Positions 1-29,786 of a stretch of 64,000 nucleotides of DNA are shown piece by piece. The stretch comes from a virus. Taxonomy: Duplodnaviria; Caudoviricetes. The stretch is from the IMG/VR virus record IMGVR_UViG_3300021958_000045, positions 15,990 through 79,989 of that record, one strand, 5' to 3'. The notes beneath the pieces are model-generated. The model did not search any database. It was not told the DNA's origin and saw nothing but the letters and a program-made list of their open reading frames with translations. A program made the position numbers and the translations under genes. Position 1 is the stretch's first letter. Every line of letters begins with the position of its first letter.

Positions 1-3000
1 AAGCTCATCCAGTCTCTTCCGTCTTTTTTTCCAGTACTGCTTTGAGACCAAGCTTTAGACATTTTATTATCTTCATAATTTTTGGTATACATAGATCGTA
101 GAGATTGACTCAACTCTTCCCATTGTCTACCGTCTTGTTTGCCTGTATCGCTTTTTGTCCAAGCTTCTGCAAGGTCTACGTCAGGACTATCAAATTTTGT
201 TTTACTTAAAGTTTTACTTAGACTATCAATATTTACGTTTAATTTATTTATTCCAGGTATTGGATTCTTTTCTGCTCTAGAAGACTGACCTCTATTTGGA
301 ACAAATCCTTGTGCAGCGTTTTGAATTTTTTTGTCATATGGATCTATACCAAATTCATCTTGAACATCTTCTGCATATTTTCTAGATACTGAAGAATTTT
401 TTGGAGGAGCTACAAAATCAACCCCTCCATGGCTAAATATTTTTTCTTGAGCATTTACAATTCTTTTTTCGTATCTTCCTGTTCCTGTTCTCAAATTAGC
501 TATACCCACTTGATCGGCGGTAACAGGTTTTTTGTAGCTCGCTAAAACTGATTGTTTCACCTCTGAATATGCTTGATGCAAATTAGCTTTTCCTGGAGAA
601 GAAGCCGCTGTTCTTGAGCTTGCAAAAGGTTTGGATTTTTTAGGCTGAAACCCTAAAGCAGAATTATTAACCTTTGCTTTGCTAGCTTTTGCTTGATTTT
701 GTTTTGCAAAATCTTCAAGCATTTTCTTTCTAGATAATTCTTCTGGACTCAATCTTCCATCTTTATTTAAGTCATAAGCTTCATCATATGAAATTTTACT
801 TTTTTGTTCTCTCACTTTATCAGCCTGTTTTTGCATGGTTCTAATATCTTGAGATGCATTAGCTGCGGCCTGCTGAACAAGATCCAAATCAAAAGTTTCT
901 TCTAAACCTTCCAGTTTATTTGTTTTTGCGATCACGTCAAACGGACCTGTACCCTCAAGGCGAGACATAGTTTTCCTAGATTCTTCTTGAATTATTGGAA
1001 CTCCATTGCTATCGGTTCTAACTAATTTATCTGCAACATCTATATTTAATCTTAAAGCAGCTTTTTTCTCTTCATCACTTAATTCAGAAATGACTGGTCT
1101 GCGAATAATGTTTTCAGATATAGATGCCATTTCTGGATTAGCTCTAAAACCTCTAGGATTAACAGAGTCAAAAAGAATATTGTGTTTTGCTTCTGGATGA
1201 TTGCTAATTATTTTTTTGAAATTGTTAAAATGAGCAATTCTTTTTCTTGCCAAAGATTCTAACTTTCTCTTTCGATCTTTTTCAGTTCTAATATATGAAC
1301 CATTTATTTTTGTTGCGCCTTGACCTTGAATATCTAAATCTTCAAGCTTTTTAATATTGCCGTCGGTTTCGTTCATGAATCTGTATTGCAATACTGCACT
1401 AGATCCTGCAGAAGATATAAATCTTGCTAATGGTTCGCTAGTACCAAGTCTATCCATCATTTGACCTGCAGCTCTAGAAATTCCAGAACTTCTTCTTTTT
1501 TCGCCTACGATTCTCCGAGCGACCATTTCTCTTTTTTTGTATTCTCTTAGTTCATCTCTTTCTCCTCGTGTAAGCGGAGTTCTGCTATCTATTTTTCTCT
1601 TAAGATAGTCAGGTACTCCTTCACCTTTTGCTGTTGCATATAAATCATTTTTATCTACGTTAGATATATAATTATTTAATTGGCTAACTATACTTGGTGG
1701 AACCTTTTGCTCAATCGCTTCTTTATATTTTCTTTTAAAACTTTCTCTACCACTTAAACTCATTCCTTGGTATATTGAGGTAAAGTCTTCTGGCCCTCCG
1801 CCTTTAAAACCATTTTGAGCGCTCTTTGATATAGCCATCATTAATTTCTCATTAGGATCTAATATATTAAATCTGCCAACGACTTCTGGCTGTAAAGCTT
1901 GTTGAGCTTTCAACCCTGCATCTCTTCTTTCTCTAGAAACTACGAAGCCACCACCTTGCTCTGAGGCAGATGAAGTATCTGTTAAATCTCCAGGAGCGCC
2001 CGTAGCATTTAAGACAAACTTTGCAGATTCATTACCAAATAATGATAAAGCTCCTTTAGTGAACTTTCCTCCAAATTTTTCAGACCAAATATTTTGTAAT
2101 CTATCAATTTTTTCTCCCGCTTTATAAACATACTTATTCCCAGGGTGAGTATCTACAAGTAGTTCGTTAATTTTTTCTGGCGTAATTGCGTTATCGCCTA
2201 TTCGTTTTGCATATTCTCCATCTTCAGTCATCCACCCTCTTTGCATCATAACTGCTCGCATTTCATCTCCCCTAGCTTGCAATAGTTTTTTAGCTGCATC
2301 CTGTTTATCGCTAACAGGAATGTCAACACCTTCTCCAGTTTTTAACATAATTTTTTCTCCTGCATAGCTATCATACCAATCTTGATAAGCTGGACCCAAT
2401 TTCCAATCAGTATTTTGAATATCTAAATAATTTTTTCTATTAAGAACATCGTTCATAGTTGAATCAGGATAAGCCATTTGCCTATGAAACAATTCTTCTT
2501 GAATAGCTTCTTTATAGCGTTGCAAAGCTAGAGCTTTTGTTTCTGCATCTGCACCAGTGGCAACCTTTTGGTCGTACGCTCCTTTGGCATTATCTACTTT
2601 ATTCCAGAGAAAACCTTTTCTTTCGTTGTAGTCTTTACTGTATTGCTGTATAAATTTCAACGGGTCTCTTACATCAGTAAAGCTTTCTCTGCTAATTTTC
2701 CTTTCTTTTGCATTAGATACCATTTTTTCGAGACCCTCTTTATGCTTTTCTTGTATGCTAGTTTCTCTTTCTCTCCATGACGCAGCAATTTCTTTTGATT
2801 TTCCAAAAGGATTTGTTAAATTTGTATTATCATCTCCTCCTCGACCAGTGATTCCAGCAACTTTCGCAGAGGCATTGCTTGATAAATTGCCCATTTCATT
2901 TGCCATTACAGACATGGCATTTTGATTTGAGTATTTGTTGATAAATTCTTTTTCCTCTGAGAGTCTTCTCGCAGTATCAACCTCTTTAAATTGAGCTCCA

Positions 3001-6000
3001 AATTGCCTATCAAGAGCTGCCTCATCATAACCTGTTATTTGATTGGTTATATCTTGAGGATCTTTTTCGGTTTCAAAAATTGTATCTGGTTCTCCTGCCC
3101 ATCCTCCTTGCCCCCCTGTTTTAATATTTATACCTAAATCTTTTGCCACTTTTTCAGCGGTAGAAGAATCCATTGCTTGTGCAACACTAGATATTCCTCT
3201 AAAATAACGATCACTATAATTCTGCCAATCATCCCCAATAGCAGCTGGAGCCCAAGGCTCACCAGCTTTTGAGTCCCCTTCGTTTATTAAACCTTGGTTA
3301 ATTAAAAAATTTGGCAAACTAAAAGCTCGGCCAGCAAGCATACCTTCTTTTGTGGACCCTTGATTAAATTCGTTATTTATAAAACTAACTTTATCTCTTC
3401 TTTCTCTATAAGCATTCATGGTTTCTTGCATTTCTCTGTAAGCTGGAAGATGCTCTTTTCCTTTCCATTTATCGGAACCCAATTCAGTTTCTAAATGTCT
3501 GTAATTTTTAATATCTTCTGGACTTAATTGTAAATCCATTTTTTGTTTAAACAAATCTCCATATCTATCCTGAGATCTTTGATCAAGTTTTTGTCCCTTG
3601 CTTATAATAGACCTATGTAAACCTACATTCTGTATTAATTTCATTGCTTCTGACTGAGCTTTTGAAAAGTCTTCTCTGGAAGCTTCTGGAATACTGTTTT
3701 TATCGAGCATTGCAAGCTCTTTCCATATTTCTACAGCCCTAACTCCGCCTTCTGTGCCTCCATAGAAATAAGAATTTAAACCTTCTTTCAAGGATTCTCC
3801 GTATGGAGACACTTGCTTGACATATTTATTTTTTAGAAAATCTCTTACCCTGTCTTGAACTATAGATTTATTTTTATCATTTCCACTGCCATCATTTTGG
3901 AATATTTCTGCTCGAGATAAACCGCCATCAGGCCCATCTCCTAATCCTGAACCATCAAACTTAGTAGTTAAAGCTCTAAATATTTCAGGAGTTAAAGTGC
4001 CTCTTCTTGTGCCAGCTATTTTTCTGGCCGATTCATTATAGCCAATACCTTCTTCTGGGTTAAATTTTGCAGGATCAAATCTATCGTCCAGTAAATTAAT
4101 TTCGTCAGGAGTAATAATTCCATCTTGATTTACATCAAATAACTTAAAGTCTTTTTTAATATTTTGTACAAGCGCATCTGCAGCTCTTTCGTCTGCACTT
4201 TGGATTATGTTTCCATCTTCGTCCAAAACATTTGCAAAATCTTTTTGAGCTCGTACAGTTCCATCTGCTTCATCTATAATTCCTCCTGCAAGCCTTGCTC
4301 CGCCAGATTTTAACAGATCTTCTTTAACAGGCTTTCTAAAGTTTTCAATTAATAATTTATTCCAATCTTCTGTTCTTGTTGAAACGTCTTTATCTCTCCA
4401 CCAGTTCATAGAATAACCAGCGGTCATTAATTGGTTATTTAACTTTTGCTTTGACTTTTGAATCTCTTCGTAAGGTATTGCCCCTAATAAATCATCATTT
4501 TTTGTATCTAAGCCCATACCTTTTCTGTAGGCACTTTCCATTGTGGCGGTATATGGCAACATTTCAGGCAATCCTTTAACAAGCTCCCAGTCTTGCATGG
4601 CTTGTTTTTTCTGGTCAAGCAAACCATTAAAACTTTCTCCCTGATTAGAACCTCTAGTCATTACAGAATCAAAAAGATCTCTAAAATAAGTTCCTCTATA
4701 GCTCTGATTACCTATTTTGCCCTCAAGAATAGCTTGTCCAGCAATAGAATCTTCCTCTCCTGTCCTTAAATAAAGCCCTTTTTTCTTAAGTAATTCAGAA
4801 TATGTTTCTTGATCTCTAATAATACTTGCATAACTAGACTTGGTGTCCCTAGAGCTATGCCATTCGTCAAGATCTTTTTGAAATTGTTTTGACGTTGATT
4901 TTTTTGTAGCAGATGATCGTCCGTCAGCGAATATGTTCATTGTCCTTCTCAGCTCAAATTCATCATCATCATTAAAAGTTTTTTGTTGAATAATCTGAGA
5001 GCCAGGACTAGCTTTTTCAAGTTTTTTCTTTTCCAATCTTAATCTTCTGTTTCTCGCGACCATCATCTGTATAGCTTCTTCTCTAAGCATCCATCTATCT
5101 TTTTGCTCTAATACGTTTTTACTAACGTCACCAGGTGCAGATTTTTTTGAGTCTTCGATATTACTTTTACCAGTATAAAGAGGATTCTTGCTAAAATGAT
5201 TGTATAAACTTCCAACCTTTCGATCTAAAGAAATTTCTTCATCTATACCTAATTGCTTACTTAATCTATTAATAGTTGATTCAAATTGAGTTTGAGAATT
5301 TTTTCTCAATTGCATACCTTGTGCAACTTTATCTGGAGCAGTTAAAAATGGTTTTAAATTTGCTCTTTTTAGTTTTGTTTCGCTTAAAGATTTAACTATT
5401 TCTCCTCTTTCCGCTGTAAGATGATCTCTTTCTTTTTGAGATATATTAGATGTAAGCTTTTTATCAATGACTGACATCTCCGCTTCTCTTTCGCTTACTC
5501 TTTTTCTTAATTTAATATCTTCTTCTCTCTTAGATTCTAAACCTCCTTGGAACCTAGATACATAACCATTAATATCTTCAGGATTCAAAGAACCAAGTTT
5601 AAGAATATTAGCTGAGCCTACCTCAGCACTTTCGAAGTCTTTATTAATTGCATCTACTTGAGTTCCATATCCCAAACCTTTTTGCATAGAATAACCAGCT
5701 TCTGTTATTTGTGTTTTGGATGCTTGAACCCCCATGTTTCGTTCTATCAAAGCTTTATTAAATTGTGCATGCATAACTTCATCTGCTTGAAGATCAGCAA
5801 GAGCTTCATAGTATTCTACATCTTGCCCTTGCATGTCCTTGCTTTGATACTGCGCCTCTTCTCCTCTTTTTAGCAGGGCAGACATAGCACTTAAATATAT
5901 TCTCTGTTCTTTAGGAATTTTTTCATCAAATTCTTCAAAAGTTTTAAATTTGGATTTATTATAATTCTCTTCGCCATATCCAGGTCTTCCATACTCTCTG

Positions 6001-24000: not shown

Positions 24001-27000
24001 TTTTTGCCCATGTCAGATTCAAGCAATATTTGAAACTTACTTAAGTCTCCTACATCCTTAGTTAACCTATTAATAGATTTCTGCGTCAAATTCTGAGGAA
24101 AATTTGAGTGAAACATATGTCTTTCAACAAAAGGCGTTAAGTCTTTAGATAATTTACTCGCTTCTCCTTGAGACATAATTCTACCCAAGAAACTTTTCAT
24201 TGGCGCGACTCCAGCCTTTTCGTGACCGTAAGAAGTTATCGAGCCATCTTTGTTTATTTGTGTGTTTGTAACTTTGCCAAAATCATGCGTTAAAGCAGAA
24301 AACATCAATTTGCTTCTTTCTTTTTCTGGAAGCATTTGCCAATTTTTATTATTGGCCATTGCATTAGTTACAAGTTTTGTGTGATTAAATACATCTCCTT
24401 CGGGGTGATGCTTGGGAGACTGGGGAACTCCCTGCAATTTATCAATTTCAGGAAAATGCTTTATCCATCCAGACTCTTTTAGAAATTGCAAACCTTTTTC
24501 TGGATTGGTAGATTTAGATGCCCATTTCATCCATTCTTCTCTAACTCTTTCTTTTGGAAGATCTTTAAATTGTCCAACCATTTCTCGAGAATAGTTGATC
24601 AATTCTTTATCTGCAGAAAGATTAAACCTTCCAGCCATCTGCATAGATCTTAATACCCTCAAAGGGTCTTCTTTAAATCTAGGAGACGTAGGCTTCATGA
24701 TGCCGTCTTGTAAATCCTGCCTCCCTCCCAAGGGGTCAATAAATTTCTTTGTGAGAGGGTCGTAAGAAATAGAATTGATTGTTAAATCTCTTCTTTGTGC
24801 AGCTTCTTTGCGCCCCATATTAGGATCTACTTCAACCTCAAAACCTCTATGTCCAGCACCTACTTTCTTTTCTCTTCTTGGCATCGAGAACTCAAAATCT
24901 TGCCCCCCGCTTTTAGCTTTGAATACTCCAAAGTCTTTGCCAACTAAGCCTTCTTTAGTTAAAGATGGAGACAATATTTTTTGCAATTTTTCTTGTTCTA
25001 AACCAAAAACCTCAACATCCCAATCTTTAGGAAATTTGCCCATTAAAAAGTCTCGAGGAGCTCCGCCTACAATCTGAGCACTACCTCCAGCAGCTTGAAT
25101 TTCTTTTGATACTTTTTCAAGATATCTGGGGACGGGCATAGTTTCTGCCGCAAAGTTAGGGACAAGGTCTCTTTGTGTATTTTCTGGTTGAGCAAAGTTG
25201 GGAACCAAACCTTCAGCATTTCCACTACCTCTTCCAGAATGCTGGCCACTAAATTGATAATGAGTTCCAGTTATATTTTCATTTCTAAGGTTACGAATAG
25301 CTTCTATATTTTCAATTGCGTCATCGATCAGATCGTACTTACCCCCTTGCTTTTTCCAAATTCTCTCTAATAGAATCGCTTTCTTTTCTGCAGGCTTTAA
25401 ATTCCTATAACCAGGAACCCTTCCTCCTTTTGCTTTAATTATTTTTCCAGAACCATCGCTAGCAATTTTAATATTATTAAACATATCTGCGGTGGTCATA
25501 ATCTTTTCAGGATTAATTCCCCATTTTTTTAATTTTTCTTCAATAAATGGCACAGACTGTTTTGCTCGAGCAGTTAAGACAGTGACCGCTTGACCCTGAA
25601 GTTCTTTTGCTAACGGGGTAGGTTTAGCCAATCCTGCAGATTCAGCTTGAAACAAATCTTTAGACTTTACATTCTTAGAATAAGTGCCTAGTGTTTCGTC
25701 AAAATCATAAAATTTTCTAAAGCCTGCGTTTCTTTTGAGGGCAAAGTTGGGAACGAGTCCTTCAGATAATTTTGATACAGTTCTCTCTAATGTGCCAGCA
25801 TCTTTTGTAAAATTAGGAACAGCTCCTTCTGAATATTTTTTTAGAGATTTGCCTGGAGCTTGTTTTTTCTGACTCTCTTGAAGCTTGACAATCTTTTGCC
25901 AAATTTGGTTTGCTTCGCCATTTAACTGGCTAATCTTTGGATCTATTTCAGCTCTGGGCCTCCCAGATTGAGACAGTTGCTTTGCTTGTCCTAGTTTGCC
26001 CTGCCACATCTTTAAAAGCCTTGATCGATCTGACTGCATATCAACAGGCTTAATAAAATTAGGCACTGCTTCTTGAGAATTTAAATAACTAGCGTAATTG
26101 GGAACAACTCCTTCTGAATATTTCTTAGCAGACTTGCTAGATATTTGTTTCTTTTGTTTCTCTTGGAGGCCGACAATCCTTTGCCAGATTTGATTTGCTT
26201 CGCCATTTAGTTGACTAATCTTGGGATCTATTTCGGCTCTAGGTTTTCCAGATTGAGACAGTTGCTTTGCTTGTTCCAGTTTACCTTGCCACATCTTTAA
26301 AAGCCTTGGTCGATCAGACTGCATGTCTACAGGTTTAATAAAATTAGGAACTACTCCCTCAGAATAAAAGCCTGCCTTTTCATCTCTATTAAAATTCTTA
26401 TCCCCCTTTTTTAATATTTTTGTATATGCATCCATGGCAAAATATTCGCCAGATGCAGTTCCACTTAAAATGGAATTTTTTGTATTAAACCCTAAATTTG
26501 CTTCTGACCAACTATTAAATGACTCTATACCATTTTCTTTAACCCATTTACTAACTTTAGTTTTTAAAGATTTAATATTTTTAAATTCGATTTCATCATT
26601 TCCAATCTGAAAAGTTCCCGAGGTTGACATTCCTGGCTTGATTCTTTGTTTTAATTGTGGGAATGCATTGATTATGGTTTCCCAAGGAGTTTTGCCTGAA
26701 GAAGCACGAATTTGGTCAAAGGTACTGTGAATCTCTTTATTTTTCCATCTTCTTTTTCCTGTAAAGCCTGCGATTTTATCAAAATTTCTATTAGCTCCCC
26801 CCTTCATAGAAGGATCGTTTACATCTGCTCCTTTAGCTCTTTCTGAATATAAAATGTCAGTCTTGTTTTCGTAATCGTACTCTCCCTTGCCATAAGTAAA
26901 TCTAGTTGTTGTTCCAGTTTTTTTATCAGTTACTTGTATAATGGGTAATTGACCATTCCATTCATTAGTAGTCTTCATACCGTCGAACCCTTTAATATCT

Positions 27001-29786
27001 TTTTGGGCTCTTGCAAGATTTTTCTCTCTAATTTTTTTAAGTAATTCTGGCTTGCCCCAAGTAGACACAAAATTTGGTATACTTTTAGCAGCATCTGGAA
27101 TTATTCCTTGTGCAGCCCTCTTTTTACCACCAGCAGCAATAGCTTTACCTCGTCCAGCTACTGTTCCAGCGGCAGCCTTCTTTTGCTTTTCAAAATCTTT
27201 ATATTGTTTTAATTTTTGATAACCTCCCCTAGAATCAATAATTTTTTTAATTCCACTGCCAATATTTTTCTTGCTTGATGAAACTTTAGCATCTACATTT
27301 TTGCCTTTTCTTGAATCTAAATTAAATGCAGTTGTTAAGTTTTTTTGAAATTCAGGACCAGGAAAATCCCATCCAGCGGTTCCAGGATCGTTTTTTACAA
27401 CTGAATTTTTAATATAATTTAAAGTTGCTTCAAATACCCTTCCTGTGAATTGAGGGCCTGCAGACTTATCCAAGTAATCGCTTAATGGGCCAGAACCTTT
27501 AACCTTTCCTCTTGGCATAATATCTCTAGCTACATCTCCTATGGCAGAAGTCATATGCTTATCAACAATACTATGGAAGCTTGAGCCTTGTGATTGAGCC
27601 AGTCTACCGATAGTGAAGTTTCGTGCTTCAAATTTTGTGCCTTTAAAAGCTGGAGGAACTGCGCCATCAAACACTGAAGATGCTGCTACAGTTTGATTTT
27701 TTCCTGTTTCTGATTTGCCCGCTTCTGCTGTTATAATACCCTGTCCAGCTGCATTTAATTTAATTACCTGATTGTTGGTTGCTTTAAAATTTGGTACATA
27801 ACCAGTAGAGTAAAAGCTTTTGGTTCCATAGTCAGCGGCAGAATAAAATTTTTCAATACCATTGTCATAATTGAATCTTTGCATCATATCTTGATTTAAT
27901 ATTGCAGATGCGCCTGAACCCATAAAGTTTTCAACAATTACTTCATCTGTATTTGCAACGATATCTTGCTTTTGAGTTTTTGTTTTTTGAAAGTTTTTAA
28001 TTAATACAGGGGAAGCAGATTTAGAAGCTCCCCCAACTCTACGATTTATGTCTCTTTGTTCTGCAGCAAAAGAAGGAATAAATTTTGAATCAGTATTTGC
28101 AGGAACATAACCTTTTGACATGCCAAGATCTTTGCGTCCCGCTGCAGCTCTAGGACCTCGGCCATAAGGAACTACAGTGCCTTGATTACTTACTGCAACG
28201 TTGGCTAACGTAGACGACGAAGCGATTTTTTTTAAGAGCGCATCTTGCGCTATTCGTTCGGTCGTTTGTTTTTTTAAGACGCTGAGTATTGCCTGCTCTT
28301 TTGCCACTTGGCTTGTAGAGTCGCTTAGAATTTTCTGTCGAACCCCCTCTTCGCTCATTAAAATTTGAAGAATTGCAGCTTGCAAACCCTCTTGACGTTT
28401 AGTTTCACTGTTGATTGAAAAGATTGACTTCAATGCGCTCGCACCTTGTTGAGCGACGAATGCAAATAATTTAATAAATGCCCCACCAATTAAAACCATG
28501 CCAGGACCACTGATGAAACTACCAATACCTTTTAATAAAGTCTTGCCAATATTAGTGCCACTATCTTCTCCTACTAAATTATTTATTCCGTCAGCCAGAG
28601 TCTTAACTGTTTCTAATACTTTTTCAATGCCAGGACCCAAAGTCATTTCTCCAAAATTGGCAGCCAACTCTTTTATAGATAATCCTGTTTGACTAAGTAG
28701 AGCAGACATAGTTTTATTCAACTCTTCATTTCTTTGGGTGGCTTCATTAGTACTATTGTTTGCAGTTTTAAGAGCTTGATCGTATATACTAAATTCGCTA
28801 TTTAAGTCTTTAATTAAAGCTTTAAGGTTATTAACCTGAAACACTCCAGCAATTAATTCATCAGTTGCGGCTTTTTGAGCATCGCTTAAAGTATCGTAAC
28901 CTTTTGCATAATCTTGAAGCACTGCCATGCCAGAACGAAATGCCCCAGTTGCATCTTGCGTTGCAACACCGATTTCTTCTAAAGCTTCTCTTACGCTAGA
29001 TCTCTGCAATCTTGTAAATATACTTTTAAATGAGTTTCCTATTACTGCTCCACCTCTAGCTGTTTGCTGTTGAACACTAGTAACAGCAGCAAGAAGTTCA
29101 TTAAATTGCACTTTTGCAGATTGTGCAGTTGCTCCAGCTCTTGCTAAACCATCTGCTAAATCTTTAGAAGATACTGCAAAGGCTGCATCAACATTAGCCA
29201 ATCTATTGACAATATCTGAAGAATTTATAGCTGCATCATTAAAACCATTTATGGCTGCCGTAAGAGCATTTACAGCCTCCACAGAATCCATGCCAGACAA
29301 TCTTGTTAACGTCATTGCATCAGCAATACGCTGAAGGGTTTCGTCAGCACTTAAACCTTGTCTAGCAAACTCTGTTGCGGCAGCGGCTATATCTTGAAAA
29401 GATGATGCAGTATCTCTTGCAACATCAAATAAAGCTCCTCCAAAATTTTGTAAAGCAGACTCAGACATATTCATAATAACATTAACGTCTTTTAATGCTT
29501 TTTGAACTTCTATGGCTGATTGAGCCATTGCTTTTAATGCATCAGAAACTCCATTAATAACGGAAACTGCAGCACCAAACGCAAATACACGAGCGACAGC
29601 AGCGTCCATGGATTTTTCAAATTCTCCCATTTGGCCAGTAATTCTACCAAGAGGCTGGACGAGTCCTTTTTCATTCAATTGCAATTTAATGGGCTGAATT
29701 TTCTTTTCGCCCATTTTGGCTTGATTAGCAATATCTTGATCAAGACCTACTGCTTTAACTCTTACTCTAATATTTTCTTGTGCCAT
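1..29786 (-). CDS. Giant tape measure protein / multi-enzyme polyprotein, at least 9,928 aa, 3' end outside the window
   Basis: ATG at 29786 (MAQENIRVRVKAVG...). The frame was spot-translated open at many points down to position 3 (...KKDGRDWMS). No minus-strand ORF of this frame is in the track, consistent with no stop before the edge. It lies directly downstream of the tail tube and chaperone genes. Confidence 0.9.
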   Translation of the reverse strand, partial: MAQENIRVRVKAVGLDQDIANQAKMGEKKIQPIKLQLNEKGLVQPLGRITGQMGEFEKSMDAAVARVFAFGAAVSVINGVSDALKAMAQSAIEVQKALKDVNVIMNMSESALQNFGGALFDVARDTASSFQDIAAAATEFARQGLSADETLQRIADAMTLTRLSGMDSVEAVNALTAAINGFNDAAINSSDIVNRLANVDAAFAVSSKDLADGLARAGATAQSAKVQFNELLAAVTSVQQQTARGGAVIGNSFKSIFTRLQRSSVREALEEIGVATQDATGAFRSGMAVLQDYAKGYDTLSDAQKAATDELIAGVFQVNNLKALIKDLNSEFSIYDQALKTANNSTNEATQRNEELNKTMSALLSQTGLSIKELAANFGEMTLGPGIEKVLETVKTLADGINNLVGEDSGTNIGKTLLKGIGSFISGPGMVLIGGAFIKLFAFVAQQGASALKSIFSINSETKRQEGLQAAILQILMSEEGVRQKILSDSTSQVAKEQAILSVLKKQTTERIAQDALLKKIASSSTLANVAVSNQGTVVPYGRGPRAAAGRKDLGMSKGYVPANTDSKFIPSFAAEQRDINRRVGGASKSASPVLIKNFQKTKTQKQDIVANTDEVIVENFMGSGASAILNQDMMQRFNYDNGIEKFYSAADYGTKSFYSTGYVPNFKATNNQVIKLNAAGQGIITAEAGKSETGKNQTVAASSVFDGAVPPAFKGTKFEARNFTIGRLAQSQGSSFHSIVDKHMTSAIGDVARDIMPRGKVKGSGPLSDYLDKSAGPQFTGRVFEATLNYIKNSVVKNDPGTAGWDFPGPEFQKNLTTAFNLDSRKGKNVDAKVSSSKKNIGSGIKKIIDSRGGYQKLKQYKDFEKQKKAAAGTVAGRGKAIAAGGKKRAAQGIIPDAAKSIPNFVSTWGKPELLKKIREKNLARAQKDIKGFDGMKTTNEWNGQLPIIQVTDKKTGTTTRFTYGKGEYDYENKTDILYSERAKGADVNDPSMKGGANRNFDKIAGFTGKRRWKNKEIHSTFDQIRASSGKTPWETIINAFPQLKQRIKPGMSTSGTFQIGNDEIEFKNIKSLKTKVSKWVKENGIESFNSWSEANLGFNTKNSILSGTASGEYFAMDAYTKILKKGDKNFNRDEKAGFYSEGVVPNFIKPVDMQSDRPRLLKMWQGKLEQAKQLSQSGKPRAEIDPKISQLNGEANQIWQRIVGLQEKQKKQISSKSAKKYSEGVVPNYASYLNSQEAVPNFIKPVDMQSDRSRLLKMWQGKLGQAKQLSQSGRPRAEIDPKISQLNGEANQIWQKIVKLQESQKKQAPGKSLKKYSEGAVPNFTKDAGTLERTVSKLSEGLVPNFALKRNAGFRKFYDFDETLGTYSKNVKSKDLFQAESAGLAKPTPLAKELQGQAVTVLTARAKQSVPFIEEKLKKWGINPEKIMTTADMFNNIKIASDGSGKIIKAKGGRVPGYRNLKPAEKKAILLERIWKKQGGKYDLIDDAIENIEAIRNLRNENITGTHYQFSGQHSGRGSGNAEGLVPNFAQPENTQRDLVPNFAAETMPVPRYLEKVSKEIQAAGGSAQIVGGAPRDFLMGKFPKDWDVEVFGLEQEKLQKILSPSLTKEGLVGKDFGVFKAKSGGQDFEFSMPRREKKVGAGHRGFEVEVDPNMGRKEAAQRRDLTINSISYDPLTKKFIDPLGGRQDLQDGIMKPTSPRFKEDPLRVLRSMQMAGRFNLSADKELINYSREMVGQFKDLPKERVREEWMKWASKSTNPEKGLQFLKESGWIKHFPEIDKLQGVPQSPKHHPEGDVFNHTKLVTNAMANNKNWQMLPEKERSKLMFSALTHDFGKVTNTQINKDGSITSYGHEKAGVAPMKSFLGRIMSQGEASKLSKDLTPFVERHMFHSNFPQNLTQKSINRLTKDVGDLSKFQILLESDMGKNLSDDVTARKFTQVDEKNISRMSSIAKESGIYKEPPKPIVQGRDLIQEKLVEPGPQMGSVLKHLEEAQISGEFKTKKEGIEYFKKHREDILKRINKFTPRGKMLRRRASGEVPQLENYSQGLIPNFARIPSMFNIKQTKSGKEYVMEKDLELAKMQFPDAKFKQWGKNPKMHFISGHKPQNKLTKDKISFDSDVKLQEFAQFAAQKGYPEIMGAVVKSTQVAQNSSGNRNYDRLTSWKNKREEVPSQVNIKDVQSLKAEDYQSFPMGKTGADLKRLYNPDSFDNVSKTIFTSTDTQKALAKSAEKFTTKNVDSAEDILKFVKKARGSESISEEQISKLYQEFAEMKGLAIMSDGHIPNFASPAFNKFIKDNIHNKNYKSISDKVTKLNLSVGNAYGVGSNIPQDVKILNRLTSQLSKVTNPLMGPTGKGSRDIVYESKEFAQKFNKTEYDKIQKEITTLQKEKFQLSRPSNPGKNPDKVKQIESEIFKKQEQLKSTEFNKAKSEAIRKEDQDIQRLFQEKFTVQKDKIISPTGKTVSTQDLNSLEEEFNEYMFAKQQKRTNTNEELVLPNFSVTAPETVPNFVNIKAIRELAKRGATNGERSAAQNMLAKHGFKSKTITSRSWHDKLFLENYIKNKGPKSDLEMLIKKGYSEKELISLRKQYENDPQSVKIASHGIVPNFTRQKDRVRDSDYQTQLYKENFKDSSRSEDVNSFTSVDESSTSSKTFAEGMVSKSVSSSSSSADSKSFAGGTISDVTSQETETLATGFIPNFSIESDRMKEAGQASQLYGQNVGYKDTQVKKLEINGKKERVVVNNKEKFYSTGADVQKAFSLPFKPSGGMVLPPSHTKVGKERAREFQTLIKSYASGITPMAEPSPPQLAYGAVPNFSIFRKYSPNTLRKSKIKDYSNEEFAEISRALSEFNLMSMGARGGVINTRLKSESRADGLFRAKTEAQKEDFRQFFNSREFRSLNKYIQEKLKVDFPDLSRGYGYNVDPFEIRQLENVSAGTVPNYANLTLYRGQKNPTLDRPNIGKNMPSFKGAQTPQDVINIIQNFVKSHVSGPLSGRRDIGELDNVAPSGATSFSTSETIAKEFAGGGLNKPAKDNILSTQVSEKNVFNKKKILKLLNRGANPKKGIYPEVEKFKQAMASGQIQKWAEQVGGLFLNVSGRRNDPALMQFNKKEYGRKEYDFYGRSMQSIVPQSDIGWNQNKTSQISSREHEVMQIFNDGIIPNFAPAAGKAGRQKNKPYQDDPDNVIDLRPFTTYDYSLLFPQRGGGAPQSTVRGSGPYAKKYQSQFLVGWNSKGINPKIPKEADRIAKIGDLVERDVKTIVKAHSENFVRAFGEQEIRMQDSSIIDRVVQKHFNEGTLTAMAGNAFEAAANAAFSNIPVNAGGGDFDVRGPTDQLRKFFNWPSSHGSIGDFKANAQSGDIKASMADKILKELDYQGLLSGQVAKEKADFEKYDKQKAATNKQATMNRFRAMPSANALRGAAIKGKQTAQGQQAHEKIPGYMRSGEELENYYKSNQNFYSGIVPNFIINKNLSQEKIPKLVDRNVTQQSYALGKQSEKINLQTRDKNVESKIVQEQEKDLSKQDEFISLSQGLISQKIDNASDSKSVNSYNKSADTQSVIKRQDSSQAKEKKIESTINNSYISYGEKESSSNSSFAESIKSKQSDFINGFQSFSQGMVSKDVSTDSKSFSQGMVSKDVSTDSKSSSQGMVSKDVSTDSKSSSQGMVSKDNQQASSEVFSQGFSLESNKVSSNSTNQENRVFGREDNFSTLYRLRDNFQENESSTKENVLNRRKESIEKRKNKQVIQKYFQGYTPEKQKPSDREFKYLKNDNKEKDSKTEIIESIYSQGKEISKERLSNGYVPNFALNVNSASRGNDALGAAIKRESQAGIPMHKIRIGQSNRLKNESNPGGVGVYNTIDEPRGLGQGISRSISQGINPQKHGLVANGYVPHSTFSVPNFIGRFIPKMFKRGGSKAADAAIPTPTGGGMFGGGGGMMNTIFMGQMMFGGIEGQTGTAGGYAADAAGDALQIAAITSMITDKKKWVALAASVGALNGVLDQYSKSLKVQGDQIERNIQINGKAIESATQVVSAQSRLNSAIEGGDPENITKAIKSLQKQIESFPSGSSAIDDLRSALVTANGDVQKMSTALEKFSASALKVNQLGQLTIKAQAANENREGVLPFGFGPTQLPDFVPFFGGEKGELKDEARGEIRNIGMQSVQGLELAEEQVTSLSKKLSKINFEEFSAEDIRSTIKEFSSTLDEETRTLFDQIVDNIPDEGMVDFTVGIKEQLKLRKESIEAGKAVGKTSSALGNLKSTIVNLSTAVSRSISELNSNITKAFDIAEKQFNSELSIMTGMNYMTPNEARSAQEEFSVTRINAETAAGTEFEVSKFVNQLMKDTKMEDFEGEDGSVFSGKLADVLNKMYLKSSELEQGDGRFMADDIVSAIERIDFDERTQEEQELIDSVRQLNEKANQQIALLKLGNEIAAREDLLQARKNLESTQLDVTAREGEIMEQFAFGQSFEPETQLDLDVQARATQDMVGLMEGLFGKSPELNDMRQQANMQNAIGNVNRILMMLGVETETGFDAKADANIDMGDVVNSMKKALVEQDLPDGTQKMVSYMIKQLTAQQGALASTPSDRSELTRKTLQSTAEALNIDLEELGLDPRTMGFNDLTSIADQLGDNGVEIRLLSSIDEGIQTLSKTLQPEQGISAEEIVKAIRNIKVADTEKVEQRTKASKQQDEARQKIQNIAIDGANVNIGGSTKINTSGNITIHGGANSTEPPQPAPSRGGVPNFARNSSTRDRKKSPIRGLKESLNEDKLKESRGFEQFAGKTFTGGRALQVANYYPGAIDSIYREVEALEKKGITNALNNVQLTIPASSNSLANFQYQGAVVTNTVDEGNVTPRSYLNKIENVHDLSPRDSEFSMTGMIDNSSSQTQAISTVRRSSQNASANQIANNYSIANQKSSWKSARAQSSIGDTYNAGAALRVANYYPEAKETIQKEIKTLKDRGVKNPINEIQFTVPDQELSEIGPKSIIDSVITNRVDDGSVAESNYLTKIQNTHKTGLRIQKQKEFISPSAEQRAENLVKNEKILRNNLHQNIISKRKDSQKTKEQEVYSESVWGETTYAPKQTMAQKLAGKTFTGGAALRVAKYWPGASESISREITALENKGVMDPISNIQLTVPGGKSQYFSSYDGPVVTNKIDEGGVAPTNYINKIRGVHKLGPQEGAFASHGTLDEDVDDKTKFMRGYLERNPYVPNFAAPQKGARRIINTARALGEDMDIWDLEPESIKPSAVANWNSSGAALLKQVHGLQGNSQGGLSKLQRAFIEEMRKEENQQIFSKIGVENFDFDQAKFMDPEIGEPQIFRPMVIEYMGGNKDGQVVPVEEATKAKPRDFQSGKYIISQIDSTNPDIDELELFTGEENRAIRQAVANQDADSEETMRRQRAAKATQRAVERGGPKARSDAGPNVRATKTLGDSAPKVGTLTEAAKQNMKGLESHIIPKDLADDIRSQEAITARAAENATEQASKEIGKSAEGGFVRQAGTWLKRQLQTLRILTGRSTEQKQGINPVKEEEILSQIENEGVRTYSGDTPTNPLETNEDVKSILAEKVDGEVDTGADRVHKQKENYLQRERSVTEKIQRAIQANRIRKNRQKKQRQRQKELEQKARRTLEEQKAQQRQEEIERVRKIQEAEIDKGLGRTRTSMAIGEGSEFKDVLTYNNPELRELSSWDKIKKTALKFVGRYKGSEIEEVERQNNIVRTQQMQDLASGENIASEETTFSKLQKLSNERSVTTSTSATSESLFQRPASTPRNPWTTSVVSHRSQKSPVVEMAEELIEQRAMNISGSVSPIKDAPEESKKQSILRQVIGGSTSPEGVDGLFSLRAETIDPPLLERIRRAKSQLFPEHGNVSFRQAGIVPSKSPSTVLSDFDILASDGTLIGTMDSTGIIHPPTVETKPVIYDANGRAVGAQKVAGVQTAQAQLQLAPANTGELAVSASQADVLNQAQVSKISNKLKSGSDLSVEEMNVLQQWANNNPDLVNSIETGQENKTLLLENADVKSRASRLTDKQFEISKVTSAAKAENQIDELINNPEFVDRATRTMPGDPIHLQRMFDNIDSRKSVPLPPTETALDKVKTNSNINRRANELQKQLVLREIRQKAPLELQKRLRLPANFNEADLNKKFLSEKQRLQQLIDNPNIPSNKRGIIEEDLRILTRNKNEHLNALDPKLMERQDLFINRQFKELIADAGLSVFTGGGAEGVSKLDVTNQAMAKKLGPAAFDLDGDFVKLREEISKVLFLDPENTAGFDKNLAESLVDRELRVIGLDSQGKGFGLGDRMRENLINLDRFVGMGMGEDFLRQAKTQNLHKSDINVARLVSFMDLMDPAGNKLDGKAIENLKKGGIDKIFQKIQKGELFSQTAIRGKTVPMIPKDPEAVLNNLKNADLASQVNASRILENEGKLSSLAASKGNGIVNPASLELAAQELEAGRQPLSTSDVGEDGIDLTKTRMTAEELASLQSTMDSLDGDLDQKAPDQRLSTLSQSLDPENTIETSRNIIAEKQQQLINDRLVEKAEFDRLTSLGNAATQEDLQRMSELLQIDNLRVSQGRSSNFDRENVTRANNQLASFNQQSVRTASNEVGVKLTKREDSPVRSRRSEEAIEELDALEEAKADPVEQAAAVRETGAETEAKVREVASVDDNIVQQTIEEVEEVDDNWKKSKEEYLADPEKAATSERLLEKGKAHKRLIDYLVETKGWKNTMQAGKGIWNGVSSIVPIAGSAKDWTAEKWGTVRERISAWRAEQAKKHPEGIAKQMAEENHRAEQSRKAEAKLAMEMNIGSKPIAFDTSESLTQTFKQTEKFNRSQSGWTEYEDKVLDQLTGRMRVEQNGKDIITYDPKLSPYVGSKDIKEAHALRRSLNPKDHMMKRITAGENIKFLKAGEVMKKVNQGTTAVKGALLDKQISAPKSLTSSNVFQRRLIESETSGKHINVPEEFSKTITRKGNDYRALDLDKVAEGLRESTRVVDYQEPDGSIKTYSVDEFEKKRSEAFSNIQKRAELSSRSISETSTSELGDFKKESISEKIRMEQEKFMRGVLPGDIDGNPGRYTLTKEGSLLRAKEINRQANAVNLQRAGQAFDSAMNYGGGPLRGATVGTLLPAAGILAFQTETGMSVLDSAANMIGSEPKHFVLEKQVRNKDNVSVGTGNYLSTAGTDLIQQQKTLLNKKKQAGLLDAPEEASWHDKALTKIGLKQMAESKVEGDKNATELARKNIAAKIARRNLEGLAGGEEGIPGLSEYTMASQDNLEDARAQPMFFESREAATQYAHENNLSGYSAKGLGDNSEERAFLRSYGKGFAQGKVGEGNDLAESVGLSQFTGSEVAGVLSANLADAAIVGTRARMGTSTAAAMTKGAALKTAARRFAGVTAAEFFVARGEKARMDYSGMEGHLRAGGNYALGFGTGLAFESKNPLLGFAVGAPLGAAAYTARVGLGDYLNFDPDEINNTKYAMSSEELLERQKEIINLAKSKAESARQLLDKYYLGSFVNKGKRLGVDYSSKEAFHTFYDQAERDRYYQLAIEQGEIMRSAYRLAEQMDTRILANRDLYQAGTLQKNEKPNEKLVKHNYTADAVSKILSDTVTLFDPNLVTDLKEQTKMEKEGFTQKQILEKLNSKDFTSTKINEKGEEYVYQPNTEELVNLRQQKSRTYLKGLERVHDFNARQGLLRSSTDYAGASSLEETMEIGKMPEKEFLKEKISWDPDSNLGKIKDRRAQIFYKDGKKITDYDEWMKEMDRGSLDYGKLTYPYEMAQVLGIDTVDHRDTNRRIPMLKVQARIKEQFQNFRTTGRIEKKPAQAVDKILQGMGIASQGGDNSKETKINNFILGKQDDGWNVQYDEATKSTIMKHEKHGLVSFPGMGDVNNERSFERLYEKHMQDLTKSRYEEPMQSYYKAQKNFASGEQTPATRKAFEQSQAERVKNTRGISDADPSREYGRPGYGEENYNKSKFKTFEEFDEKIPKEQRIYLSAMSALLKRGEEAQYQSKDMQGQDVEYYEALADLQADEVMHAQFNKALIERNMGVQASKTQITEAGYSMQKGLGYGTQVDAINKDFESAEVGSANILKLGSLNPEDINGYVSRFQGGLESKREEDIKLRKRVSEREAEMSVIDKKLTSNISQKERDHLTAERGEIVKSLSETKLKRANLKPFLTAPDKVAQGMQLRKNSQTQFESTINRLSKQLGIDEEISLDRKVGSLYNHFSKNPLYTGKSNIEDSKKSAPGDVSKNVLEQKDRWMLREEAIQMMVARNRRLRLEKKKLEKASPGSQIIQQKTFNDDDEFELRRTMNIFADGRSSATKKSTSKQFQKDLDEWHSSRDTKSSYASIIRDQETYSELLKKKGLYLRTGEEDSIAGQAILEGKIGNQSYRGTYFRDLFDSVMTRGSNQGESFNGLLDQKKQAMQDWELVKGLPEMLPYTATMESAYRKGMGLDTKNDDLLGAIPYEEIQKSKQKLNNQLMTAGYSMNWWRDKDVSTRTEDWNKLLIENFRKPVKEDLLKSGGARLAGGIIDEADGTVRAQKDFANVLDEDGNIIQSADERAADALVQNIKKDFKLFDVNQDGIITPDEINLLDDRFDPAKFNPEEGIGYNESARKIAGTRRGTLTPEIFRALTTKFDGSGLGDGPDGGLSRAEIFQNDGSGNDKNKSIVQDRVRDFLKNKYVKQVSPYGESLKEGLNSYFYGGTEGGVRAVEIWKELAMLDKNSIPEASREDFSKAQSEAMKLIQNVGLHRSIISKGQKLDQRSQDRYGDLFKQKMDLQLSPEDIKNYRHLETELGSDKWKGKEHLPAYREMQETMNAYRERRDKVSFINNEFNQGSTKEGMLAGRAFSLPNFLINQGLINEGDSKAGEPWAPAAIGDDWQNYSDRYFRGISSVAQAMDSSTAEKVAKDLGINIKTGGQGGWAGEPDTIFETEKDPQDITNQITGYDEAALDRQFGAQFKEVDTARRLSEEKEFINKYSNQNAMSVMANEMGNLSSNASAKVAGITGRGGDDNTNLTNPFGKSKEIAASWRERETSIQEKHKEGLEKMVSNAKERKISRESFTDVRDPLKFIQQYSKDYNERKGFLWNKVDNAKGAYDQKVATGADAETKALALQRYKEAIQEELFHRQMAYPDSTMNDVLNRKNYLDIQNTDWKLGPAYQDWYDSYAGEKIMLKTGEGVDIPVSDKQDAAKKLLQARGDEMRAVMMQRGWMTEDGEYAKRIGDNAITPEKINELLVDTHPGNKYVYKAGEKIDRLQNIWSEKFGGKFTKGALSLFGNESAKFVLNATGAPGDLTDTSSASEQGGGFVVSRERRDAGLKAQQALQPEVVGRFNILDPNEKLMMAISKSAQNGFKGGGPEDFTSIYQGMSLSGRESFKRKYKEAIEQKVPPSIVSQLNNYISNVDKNDLYATAKGEGVPDYLKRKIDSRTPLTRGERDELREYKKREMVARRIVGEKRRSSGISRAAGQMMDRLGTSEPLARFISSAGSSAVLQYRFMNETDGNIKKLEDLDIQGQGATKINGSYIRTEKDRKRKLESLARKRIAHFNNFKKIISNHPEAKHNILFDSVNPRGFRANPEMASISENIIRRPVISELSDEEKKAALRLNIDVADKLVRTDSNGVPIIQEESRKTMSRLEGTGPFDVIAKTNKLEGLEETFDLDLVQQAAANASQDIRTMQKQADKVREQKSKISYDEAYDLNKDGRLSPEELSRKKMLEDFAKQNQAKASKAKVNNSALGFQPKKSKPFASSRTAASSPGKANLHQAYSEVKQSVLASYKKPVTADQVGIANLRTGTGRYEKRIVNAQEKIFSHGGVDFVAPPKNSSVSRKYAEDVQDEFGIDPYDKKIQNAAQGFVPNRGQSSRAEKNPIPGINKLNVNIDSLSKTLSKTKFDSPDVDLAEAWTKSDTGKQDGRQWEELSQSLRSMYTKNYEDNKMSKAWSQSSTGKKDGRDWMS
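738..779 (-). other. EF-hand loop in the giant ORF
   Basis: AYDLNKDGRLSPEE, canonical D-x-N-x-D-G-x-x-x-x-x-E. Confidence 0.6.
3903..4148 (-). other. EF-hand pair in the giant ORF
   Basis: FKLFDVNQDGIITPDE (canonical 12-residue loop, 4101-4136) and a degenerate partner DGPDGGLSRAE (3906-3938). Confidence 0.6.
14290..15480 (-). repeat. Three diverged copies of a ~90-aa domain in the giant ORF
   Basis: GxALxVAxY[YW]PxA..I.[RK]E[IV]..L...G...I...Q[LF]T[IV]P...V[VI]TN.[IV]D[ED]G at ~15210-15475, ~14780-15040 and ~14290-14550. Confidence 0.85.
18789..18965. repeat. 48-bp tandem repeat, ~3.7 copies, encoding a 16-aa Ser-rich unit (xSQGMVSKDVSTDSKS)
   Basis: Unit atccttagagaccatgccttgagaggaacttttggaatcggtagacac starts at 18789, 18837, 18885 and 18933. 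Confidence 0.97.
19560..20303 (-). other. PD-(D/E)xK nuclease-like cassette 2 in the giant ORF
   Basis: AGNAFEAA...GDFDV...GDFKAN, same order and spacing as cassette 1. Confidence 0.5.
20322..20963 (-). other. ADP-ribosyltransferase (R-S-E clade) cassette in the giant ORF
   Basis: LTLYRGQ (R 20946-48), TSFSTSETIAKEFA (STS 20745-53), SREHEV (E-x-E 20343-51). Confidence 0.8.
21981..22256 (-). other. DUF2786-like helical hairpin cassette in the giant ORF
   Basis: IKAIRELAKRGATNGERSAAQNMLAKHG resembles the DUF2786 pattern. Confidence 0.35.
23733..25139 (-). other. cca: Class II tRNA nucleotidyltransferase (CCA-adding enzyme) with HD domain, in frame inside the giant ORF
   Basis: IVGGAPRDFLMGKFPKDWDV, RREKKVGAGHRGF, RRDLTINS, EDPLRVLR, ERVREEW; HD part PQSPKHHPEGDVFNHT...THDFGK...GHE...ERH...ESD; C-terminal GRDLI..PGPQMG. 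Confidence 0.93.
25263..25727 (-). other. HAD-superfamily phosphatase cassette in the giant ORF
   Basis: Motif I FYDFDETL, motif II VLTAR, candidate motif III K (EKKAILL), motif IV LIDDAIEN. Confidence 0.75.
25810..26350 (-). repeat. Direct duplication of a ~250 bp linker-bounded cassette (offset 285 bp)
   Basis: Two near-identical copies of PNFIKPVDMQSDRxRLLKMWQGKLxQAKQLSQSGxPRAEIDPKISQLNGEANQIWQ...KKYSEGxVPN. Confidence 0.95.
27100..27785 (-). other. PD-(D/E)xK nuclease-like cassette 1 in the giant ORF
   Basis: GRVFEA...WDFP...VDAKVS. Confidence 0.5.
28300..29786 (-). other. Tape measure core domain (TP901/PhageMin_Tail-like) of the giant ORF
   Basis: Ala/Gln/Leu-rich helical sequence with typical motifs: EFARQGLS, LTRLSGMD, LANVDAAFAVSSKDLADGLARAG, TARGGAVIGNSFKSIFTRL. 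Confidence 0.85.

What the first reader, a model, noticed from the sequence alone, without database searches (positions are those of the whole stretch)
291..28118. About 24 copies of a G-x-[VI]-P-N-[FY] linker delimit every cassette
Seen: PNF/PNY at 27786, 27069, 26340, 26094, 26055, 25809, 25743, 25194, 25152, 23625, 22926, 22290, 22257, 21963, 21690, 21342, 20967, 20304, 19398, 18384, 18099, 15585, 14181 and 3306, plus GFVPN near 300. The usual context is [YF]-S-x-G-x-[VI]-P-N-F. Each recognisable enzyme starts just after one copy and ends just before the next. Inference: the motif is a protease cleavage site that frees individual effectors, a repeated structural or threading signal, or a recombination anchor for cassette exchange.
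Basis: partly seen in the sequence, partly recalled or inferred. Interest (0 to 1): 0.82.

Follow-up and report, generated by a model that had tools for sequence, protein, structure and literature searches.

The report
Junction peptide fencing tape-measure cargo cassettes
A 10,562-residue phage tail "ruler" protein carries a string of unrelated protein modules, including a complete tRNA-repair enzyme, each fenced by the same short peptide (G-x-V/I-P-N-F/Y); related phages swap modules at that peptide, but whether the protein is cut there is still untested.

Summary
All 24 [VIL]-P-N-[FY] sites lie in frame at the stated coordinates, in one minus-strand ORF of 10,562 aa (1.2 expected by chance). 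The ORF is a PF10145-type tape measure protein (TMP).

- **Family:** the motif, consensus A-[AS]-x-G-[FLY]-[IV]-P-N-[FY]-A, is shared by about 1,000 uncultured TMP clusters. Copy number tracks protein length (r=0.79).
- **Exclusive to the TMP:** all 358 stringent copies in 81 related loci are in TMP frames.
- **Peptide-level selection:** its codons vary synonymously.
- **Linker position:** in structure models the motif lies in low-confidence (likely disordered) linkers.
- **Module boundaries:** 37% of homology-block ends lie within 5 aa of a copy, against 3% for random positions.
- **Variable content:** cassette content and order differ between relatives.

"Every cassette" is overstated. The C-terminal 5,360 aa hold one canonical copy. 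Only one enzyme, a CCA-adding tRNA nucleotidyltransferase, is confirmed by HMMs.

My best reading (about 40%) is a proteolytic processing site cut after the aromatic residue. No protease was found and no cleavage data exist. A docking or handling signal is the main rival. A DNA-level recombination site and a frameshift site are rejected.

This scan has already noted the same motif in at least 22 other genomes. I found no published description.

The parts
3..29786 (-). Giant tape measure protein ORF (aa 1-9928 in the window; the full protein is 10,562 aa and ends 1,902 nt before the window start)
   Evidence: PF10145 at 98.9 bits against a 33.2-bit cut-off; five PHROG tape-measure families
28122..29786 (-). 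Conserved N-terminal TMP domain (aa 1-555) with two TM-like hydrophobic segments (aa 62-81 and 424-447)
28068..28082 (-). Decayed motif copy F-I-P-S-F opening cassette c1
   Evidence: PSF is the commonest tolerated variant family-wide
27807..28067 (-). c1-type small conserved cassette (aa 574-660)
   Evidence: c1 folds at pLDDT 72-83 in a relative's model
27786..27797 (-). Motif copy 1 (V-P-N-F, aa 664)
27069..27080 (-). Motif copy 2 (aa 903)
26340..26351 (-). Motif copy 3 (aa 1146)
26094..26105 (-). Motif copy 4 (V-P-N-Y, aa 1228); forms a tandem pair with copy 5, 13 aa apart
26055..26066 (-). Motif copy 5 (aa 1241)
25809..25820 (-). Motif copy 6 (aa 1323)
25743..25754 (-). Motif copy 7 (aa 1345)
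25215..25742 (-). HAD-phosphatase-like cassette (aa 1349-1524)
   Evidence: ESM Atlas features 0.91 to HAD_SAK_1 and T5 dNMPase clusters; no Pfam or PDB sequence hit; a lead, not proof
25194..25205 (-). Motif copy 8 (aa 1528); forms a tandem pair with copy 9, 14 aa apart
25152..25163 (-). Motif copy 9 (aa 1542)
23646..25151 (-). CCA-adding / tRNA nucleotidyltransferase cassette (aa 1546-2047)
   Evidence: PF01743 6e-19, PF13735; phrog_2244 6.6e-66 over aa 1572-1991
23625..23636 (-). Motif copy 10 (aa 2051)
22926..22937 (-). Motif copy 11 (aa 2284)
22290..22301 (-). Motif copy 12 (L-P-N-F, aa 2496); forms a tandem pair with copy 13, 11 aa apart
22257..22268 (-). Motif copy 13 (aa 2507)
21963..21974 (-). 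Motif copy 14 (aa 2605; reads V-P-S-F in relative L005)
21690..21701 (-). Motif copy 15 (aa 2696)
21342..21353 (-). Motif copy 16 (aa 2812)
20967..20978 (-). Motif copy 17 (V-P-N-Y, aa 2937)
20325..20966 (-). Cassette proposed as an ADP-ribosyltransferase (aa 2941-3154); identity unconfirmed
   Evidence: only a weak ESM Atlas lead to ART-PolyVal (0.86, rank 19); no PDB or Pfam hit; homologous cassette at other positions in P0002 and P0007
20304..20315 (-). Motif copy 18 (aa 3158)
19398..19409 (-). Motif copy 19 (aa 3460)
18384..18395 (-). Motif copy 20 (aa 3798)
18120..18383 (-). Universal c3 cassette (aa 3802-3889), ending in a decayed copy G-Y-V-P-H-S that is backed up 6 aa later by copy 21
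   Evidence: its profile finds 1,088 protein clusters
18099..18110 (-). Motif copy 21 (aa 3893)
15585..15596 (-). Motif copy 22 (aa 4731)
14181..14192 (-). Motif copy 23 (aa 5199); end of the cassette zone
3327..14180 (-). Motif-free region (aa 5203-8820): no recognised domain and no alternative junction peptide; possibly the ruler proper
3306..3317 (-). Motif copy 24 (L-P-N-F, aa 8824)
291..584 (-). c1-like cassette (aa 9735-9826) closed by the decayed copy G-F-V-P-N-R; in relatives the homologous cassette has canonical copies at both ends
29822..30907 (-). u1 (361 aa), directly upstream of the TMP in the tail-assembly-chaperone position; conserved in 76 of 81 loci
   Evidence: no known family
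30924..31790 (-). u2 (288 aa), second conserved gene in the chaperone position
   Evidence: no known family

Best explanation
The giant ORF is a tail tape measure protein that doubles as a cargo rack. It has a conserved N-terminal TMP domain and a long motif-poor C-terminal part. Between them lies a zone (aa ~570-5200) of unrelated, swappable protein modules. Each junction carries one copy of a roughly 10-residue peptide, A-[AS]-x-G-[FLY]-[IV]-P-N-[FY]-A, in a flexible linker. Shown: the peptide is selected at protein level, is exclusive to the TMP, marks module boundaries, and scales in number with cargo. Inferred: it is a proteolytic processing site, most likely cut between the aromatic residue and the following small residue. 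The cut would occur either inside the assembled tail, as for the single cuts in lambda gpH and T5 pb2, or after the TMP is ejected into the host. Modules such as the CCA-adding enzyme would then be freed to act ahead of the DNA. The protease is unidentified.
For: Enrichment: 24 copies against 1.2 expected. In 150 independent relatives, 917 copies against 44.6 expected, with copy number tracking length at r=0.79. Exclusivity: 358 of 358 stringent copies in 81 loci lie in TMP frames, and no true copy occurs elsewhere in this contig. Peptide-level selection: synonymous codons vary. All 21 aligned sites are retained between the window and L005, even flanking a cassette at 32% identity. A decayed copy is backed up by a fresh copy 6 aa later. 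Linker position: in the AlphaFold model of a relative's minimal core, all four copies fall in segments with pLDDT below 50, between folded units at pLDDT 70-83. Flanks are rich in G, P, S and K. Protease-site-like shape: information spans -6 to +3 and stops abruptly. The residue after the aromatic is A, S, V or I, and N-degron residues there are 6.9% against a 28.3% background (p=1.6e-62). About one copy per junction, with harmless tandem pairs. Functional logic (inference): a diffusible enzyme such as a tRNA nucleotidyltransferase could hardly work while tethered in a 10,562-aa chain. Precedent: T5 pb2 is cut after R1127, separating an enzymatic domain from the ruler, and lambda gpH is cut into gpH* and gpHC; the catalyst is unknown in both (PMC10038345, PMC12617516).
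Against: No cleavage product has ever been observed. The family has no cultured member, so no proteomics exist. No protease domain was found in the TMP, in precomputed Pfam for 13 giant relatives, in the conserved neighbours u1 and u2, in the downstream genes, or in the contig; the contig is estimated at only 57% complete. The small-residue preference after the aromatic could simply be part of a binding motif, since position -5 is equally restricted to A/S. Known TMP cuts are single, not 20 or more. A TMP must stay intact long enough to set tail length.
Confidence: 0.4

Rival explanations
1. Docking or handling signal. The peptide is a short linear motif that a phage protein binds at every junction. 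The binder could be the chaperone-position proteins u1/u2, the tail tube lumen, or neighbouring TMP chains. Binding would keep bulky cargo modules unfolded or in register so they can be enclosed in, and later threaded through, the narrow tail tube. No cut is needed.
For: The motif lies in low-confidence (likely disordered) linkers. Its aromatic-aliphatic-Pro-Asn-aromatic core could form a hydrophobic knob on a tight turn (inference). u1 and u2 are conserved in 76 of 81 loci, are much larger than classical tail chaperones, and have no catalytic signature. A 500-aa folded enzyme would not fit in a tube lumen (inference).
Against: Spacing is very irregular (11 to 3,625 aa), and half the protein has almost no copies, which is odd for a coating or register signal. 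u1 and u2 are retained in L045, whose TMP has no motif, so they are not tied to it. No binding test could be run.
Confidence: 0.3
2. Self-cleaving junction. The invariant Asn attacks its own peptide bond (Asn peptide-lyase chemistry, as in nodavirus and tetravirus coat maturation), cutting N|F once the tail is assembled or the TMP is ejected. No protease is involved.
For: Asn is nearly invariant: after G-[FYLMH]-[VI], the next three residues are PNF or PNY in 727 cases. No protease is found anywhere.
Against: P-S-F occurs 26 times at otherwise canonical sites, including one in this protein. The motif is modelled as disordered, whereas known Asn lyases need a folded catalytic environment. A cut before F/Y would leave an N-degron on every released module.
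Confidence: 0.1
3. Recombination module boundary only. The peptide is kept because its coding sequence gives microhomology for cassette exchange, or because it is a neutral, exchange-tolerant linker. It has no biochemical role in the virion.
For: Block ends coincide with the motif. Cassette order and content vary between relatives: the CCA cassette is at aa 1541 here, 4840 in P0003 and 1296 in P0010. Tandem 'empty slots' look like deletion scars.
Against: Codons vary synonymously at every position, so the DNA is not conserved beyond what the peptide needs. A neutral linker would not keep 7 to 9 positions across about 1,000 clusters that are under 50% identical, nor be retained at 21 of 21 sites between collinear relatives that have not exchanged cassettes.
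Confidence: 0.1
4. Translational signal. The CCA-AAT-TTT form of the motif contains an A-AAT-TTT slippery heptamer for programmed -1 frameshifting, or acts as a 2A-like skipping site.
For: Some copies do contain A-AAT-TTT.
Against: Only a minority do. Pro is CCA in 10 of 24 copies, Asn is AAT in 16 of 24, and many copies read CCC-AAC-TTT or similar non-slippery strings. The 31.7-kb frame stays open throughout.
Confidence: 0.02

Closest known systems
Polyvalent proteins of phages and conjugative elements (Iyer, Burroughs, Anand, de Souza, Aravind 2017; PMC5512222)
   Same: One virion-associated polypeptide strings together many unrelated enzyme-type domains that vary between relatives and are thought to enter the host with the DNA. 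Release by proteolysis is predicted there too. One cassette here has a weak feature-level lead to ART-PolyVal.
   Different: That paper never mentions tape measure proteins or a conserved linker (0 occurrences of either term). Its proteins have 2-15 domains and are proposed to be released by an embedded MPTase, which is not detectable here. Here the carrier is the TMP, and each junction bears a fixed peptide.
Cleaved tape measure proteins: lambda gpH (gpH* plus gpHC) and T5 pb2 (cut after R1127)
   Same: A TMP is cut after tail assembly. In T5 the cut separates an enzymatic (muralytic) domain from the ruler and both parts stay in the tail. The catalyst is unknown (PMC10038345, PMC12617516).
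   Different: These have one cut near the C-terminus, no repeated consensus peptide, proteins of 853 and about 1,200 aa, and no swappable cargo.
TP901-1 / SPbeta / Tsamsa / 949-type PF10145 tape measure proteins with embedded cell-wall hydrolase domains
   Same: They share the N-terminal PF10145 domain (about 27% identity), are long TMPs of siphoviruses, and in some cases have enzymatic domains inside the TMP.
   Different: None of the 50,697 GenBank phage records carries the c1-c2-c3 core. Their embedded domains act on the cell wall, not on cytoplasmic targets like tRNA.
Viral polyproteins with consensus protease sites (for example picornavirus 3C or potyvirus NIa sites)
   Same: A 7-9-residue consensus sits at each domain junction, weighted to the N-terminal side and ending in a small residue after the presumed scissile bond.
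   Different: No cognate protease has been identified and no cleavage shown. Such polyproteins belong to eukaryotic RNA viruses, not to a structural protein of a tailed phage.

Membership tests
PF10145-type phage tape measure protein | PhageMin_Tail domain above Pfam's gathering score | tested here: met
   98.9 bits against a 33.2 cut-off, aa 122-307; five PHROG tape-measure families with E from 2e-52 to 4e-18
PF10145-type phage tape measure protein | Position in the tail module, after tube and chaperone-position genes and before distal tail genes | tested here: inconclusive
   A weak Phage_tube_2 / minor-tail hit lies three genes upstream. The synteny of u1, u2 and the TMP is conserved in 76 of 81 loci. 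The downstream genes are unannotatable.
PF10145-type phage tape measure protein | Determines tail length and occupies the tube lumen | not testable with these tools
   No cultured member exists.
Polyvalent proteins (Iyer et al. 2017) | Several unrelated effector-type catalytic domains in one virion-associated polypeptide | tested here: inconclusive
   One enzyme is confirmed (CCA-adding). One has a good lead (HAD) and one a weak lead (ART-PolyVal). About 15 further cassettes have no assignable function.
Polyvalent proteins (Iyer et al. 2017) | Domain content varies combinatorially between relatives | tested here: met
Polyvalent proteins (Iyer et al. 2017) | Embedded peptidase (MPTase-PolyVal or similar) for self-processing | tested here: inconclusive
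   No PF18818 match in the contig and no peptidase Pfam family in 13 giant relatives. Divergent or unknown peptidases cannot be excluded.
Protease-processed polyprotein | Consensus site at domain junctions | tested here: met
Protease-processed polyprotein | Cognate protease encoded by the same genome | tested here: inconclusive
   None was found, but the contig is estimated at 57% complete.
Protease-processed polyprotein | Observed cleavage products | not testable with these tools
   This needs proteomics of virions or infected cells.
Asn peptide lyases (self-cleaving at Asn) | Strictly required Asn at the scissile bond within a folded catalytic environment | tested here: inconclusive
   Asn is present in 727 sites and Ser replaces it in 26. 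The motif is modelled as disordered.

The most novel reading that the evidence does not exclude
The junction peptide is a protease-independent, assembly- or ejection-triggered self-cleaving element. Alternatively it is a site for a still-unknown tail-resident protease. Either way, a phage tail would be a programmable multi-protein injection device whose cargo slots are defined by one portable 10-residue peptide.
Probability: 0.12. Interest if true: 0.9.

Novelty: new variant of a known kind. Interest (0 to 1): 0.74.

Why it matters
If the modules are released into the host, the tail tube of a large, globally distributed group of uncultured phages acts as a delivery device. The group comprises about 1,000 protein clusters at 50% identity. 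The tube would then carry a changeable set of ready-made enzymes, here including a tRNA CCA-repair enzyme that could undo tRNA-targeting defences, and these would arrive before the DNA. The fixed junction peptide would be the rule that makes this cargo rack evolvable. It would also give a portable handle for loading chosen proteins into phage tails. In addition, it offers a tractable consensus for the long-open question of how tape measure proteins such as lambda gpH and T5 pb2 are cut. At 10,562 aa this is the longest TMP seen here.

Tried and rejected
- **Complex prediction** of u1 + u2 with the motif-flanked c3 cassette was not run.
- **DNA-level site or slippery heptamer:** rejected by synonymous codon variation.
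- **Shared prohead-protease site:** rejected. The motif is absent from all other ORFs. The four chance [VIL]PN[FY] hits lack the G at -3, and one is the cyclophilin core.
- **Protease search:** Pfam and PHROGs on 16 neighbouring ORFs, profile searches of u1 and u2 against PDB sequences and of u2 against Pfam, and S78, MPTase-PolyVal and ClpP searches on the contig all found nothing.
- **Phyletic link between u1/u2 and the motif:** none. The motif-less L045 keeps both genes.
- **Structure:** c3 alone gave pLDDT 55 and the minimal core gave 54. The VIA-align wide search gave Z of 4.3 or less, which is uninformative. The c3 profile had no PDB sequence hit.
- **ART and HAD cassettes against PDB by sequence:** nothing significant.
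- **Alternative junction peptide** in the C-terminal half or in motif-less relatives: none.
- **Literature:** searches for the motif with 'tape measure', and for TMP effector arrays, returned no relevant paper.
Full report
**What is there**

The window holds one minus-strand ORF from 29786 to the window start. In the full contig it runs 10,562 aa, or 31.7 kb. That is 40% of the 79,989-bp record. The record is a linear IMG/VR contig that CheckV estimates at only 57% complete, so 40% is not a share of the whole genome.

The first 450 aa match PF10145 (98.9 bits against a 33.2 cut-off) and five PHROG tape-measure families. The only two TM-like hydrophobic segments of the protein lie there too. 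The protein is therefore a tape measure protein (TMP).

**The observation**

- Every one follows V, I or L, and 16 have G at -3.
- Composition predicts 1.2 sites, and 500 shuffles never exceeded 6.
- VPNF is the most over-represented 4-mer in an unbiased count.
- The 'GFVPN near 300' is a decayed copy (G-F-V-P-N-R). Two more decayed copies exist, F-I-P-S-F at aa 569 and G-Y-V-P-H-S at aa 3884. The latter is followed 6 aa later by a fresh canonical copy.

**The family**

Thirteen other giant TMPs (5,468-7,702 aa) share the N-domain. All but one carry 9-24 copies, against about 1 expected. IMG/VR holds more than 116 related contigs, with TMPs ranging from 1,687 aa upward.

A profile of one conserved cassette (c3) finds 1,088 clusters at 50% identity among 1.84 billion representatives. 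In 150 of these:
- There are 917 PN[FY] sites against 44.6 expected.
- Copy number tracks length (r=0.79).
- Median spacing is 128 aa.

The consensus is A-[AS]-x-G-[FLY]-[IV]-P-N-[FY]-A. Without conditioning on PNF, the three residues after G-[FYLMH]-[VI] are PNF 660 times, PNY 67, PSF 26, and anything else 8 times or fewer.

The minimal members share a fixed core: N-domain, motif, c1 (~80 aa), motif, c2 (~250 aa, with an E...PFD...D-A-K signature like PD-(D/E)XK nucleases), motif, c3 (~73 aa), motif, then at least 1,000 motif-free residues. The window's protein has c1 at aa 574-660 and c3 at aa 3802-3889, with about 20 extra segments between and after them. No GenBank phage has this core, and the nearest cultured TMPs are about 27% identical.

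**What the motif is not**

- It is not a DNA site or a slippery sequence, because all synonymous codons are used.
- It is not a general protease site of this phage. It occurs in no other ORF of the contig, and all 358 stringent copies in 81 loci, counted over six frames, are in TMP frames.
- It is not part of a fold. In AlphaFold models of c3 alone and of a whole minimal core, the small cassettes reach pLDDT 70-83, while all four motif copies lie in stretches below 50.

**What it does in evolution**

Homology blocks between relatives begin and end at the motif. 37% of 827 block ends lie within 5 aa of a copy, against 2.9% for random positions. Content and order differ:
- The CCA cassette is at aa 1541 here, 4840 in P0003 and 1296 in P0010.
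- P0001, 75% identical in the N-domain, lacks many of the window's cassettes.
- Tandem copies 11-22 aa apart look like empty slots.

The motif is also kept where no exchange has happened. Against the collinear relative L005 (80% identity over 4,040 aa), all 21 aligned sites are retained, with one N-to-S and one V-to-M change. This holds even beside a cassette that has drifted to 32% identity. So the peptide itself is under purifying selection at each junction.

**Cassette identities**

- HMMs confirm only the tRNA nucleotidyltransferase (aa 1572-2009; PF01743, PF13735, phrog_2244 at 6.6e-66). It fits between the copies at 1542 and 2051.
- The neighbouring cassette has feature-level support as a HAD phosphatase.
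- The proposed ADP-ribosyltransferase has only a weak lead.
- The rest are unassigned.
- The C-terminal 5,360 aa have one canonical copy, no alternative junction peptide and no recognised domain.

'Delimits every cassette' and 'each recognisable enzyme' are therefore overstated.

**Mechanism**

A function needed once per junction, in a flexible linker, exclusive to one protein, is most simply a cut site. Three points fit this:
- The motif's information lies on the N-terminal side and stops after a small residue.
- N-degron residues at that position are fourfold depleted (6.9% against 28.3%). This fits a new N-terminus, although a second motif position is also restricted to A/S.
- There are precedents. 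T5 pb2 is cut after R1127, separating an enzyme domain from the ruler, and lambda gpH is cut once. The catalyst is unknown in both.

Against it, no protease is detectable in the TMPs, the neighbours or the contig, and no product has been seen.

The main rival is a docking or handling signal for the conserved chaperone-position proteins u1 and u2, or for the tube. u1 and u2 also occur beside a motif-less TMP, so they are not tied to the motif. Asn-driven self-cleavage is weakened by the P-S-F variants and by the modelled disorder.

**Comparison and novelty**

The closest concept is the polyvalent protein of Iyer et al. 2017, but that paper mentions neither TMPs nor a linker peptide. I found no paper on the motif.

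Within this scan, the same motif has already been reported in at least 22 other genomes, with the same open question. This window adds four things:
- Exhaustive family statistics.
- The tolerated-substitution spectrum.
- The disorder and N-degron observations.

Noticed in passing
whole contig (G000): The record is a linear IMG/VR contig that CheckV estimates at 57% complete. Relatives of the TMP lie on contigs of 150-209 kb, so the true genome may be much larger than 80 kb.
   Followed up: partly
L048:9980-13016 and L002:9992-13094: In two relatives the TMP frame closes early: 32 aa after the fourth motif in L048, and after 1,034 aa in L002, where a second long frame overlaps and continues. 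These are either assembly frameshifts or natural splits of the TMP just behind the c1-c2-c3 core.
   Followed up: no
P0014 (483 aa): A short protein holds three tandem c3-like domains joined by degenerate junctions (D-I-P-N-L and V-I-P-H-F) instead of the canonical motif.
   Followed up: no
L034:11495-12763 (alignment A5): The central c2 cassette of the minimal core has invariant E, D and D-A-K residues arranged like a PD-(D/E)XK nuclease. Its fold could not be confirmed (pLDDT 40-50).
   Followed up: partly
window 18405-19397 (aa 3464-3794): This is a low-complexity S/Q/K/D-rich cassette with short internal repeats (S-Q-G-M-V-S-K, D-S-K-S). It evolves far faster (32% identity, many indels) than its neighbours (78-94%).
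   Followed up: partly
window 14250-15488 (aa 4767-5179), and aa 9854-10186 (window 3-227, continuing beyond the window start): There are three tandem ~155-aa repeats inside one motif-bounded segment, and a second set of repeats near the C-terminus.
   Followed up: no
window 4098-4160 and 729-779: There are two EF-hand-like calcium-binding loops in the motif-poor C-terminal half. One reaches Pfam's cut-off in the whole-protein scan (PF13202, 26.1 bits against a 25.9 cut-off); the other is just below it (PF00036, 24.7 against 25.4).
   Followed up: no
window 26094-26339 and 25809-26054: An 82-aa cassette is duplicated (87-95% identical in its first 60 residues). The two copies are separated by a tandem motif pair.
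   Followed up: partly
L001:666-1547 (contig bases before the window): A cyclophilin-type ORF here carries the chance match V-L-P-N-Y inside its conserved core. It sits next to a collagen-like G-P-P repeat ORF at the contig start.
   Followed up: no
L002 (contig JAYPYG010000004.1): The only relative in the GTDB genome collection is a 64-kb contig binned as Candidatus Neomarinimicrobiota. This is a possible host hint, or a mis-binned phage contig.
   Followed up: no
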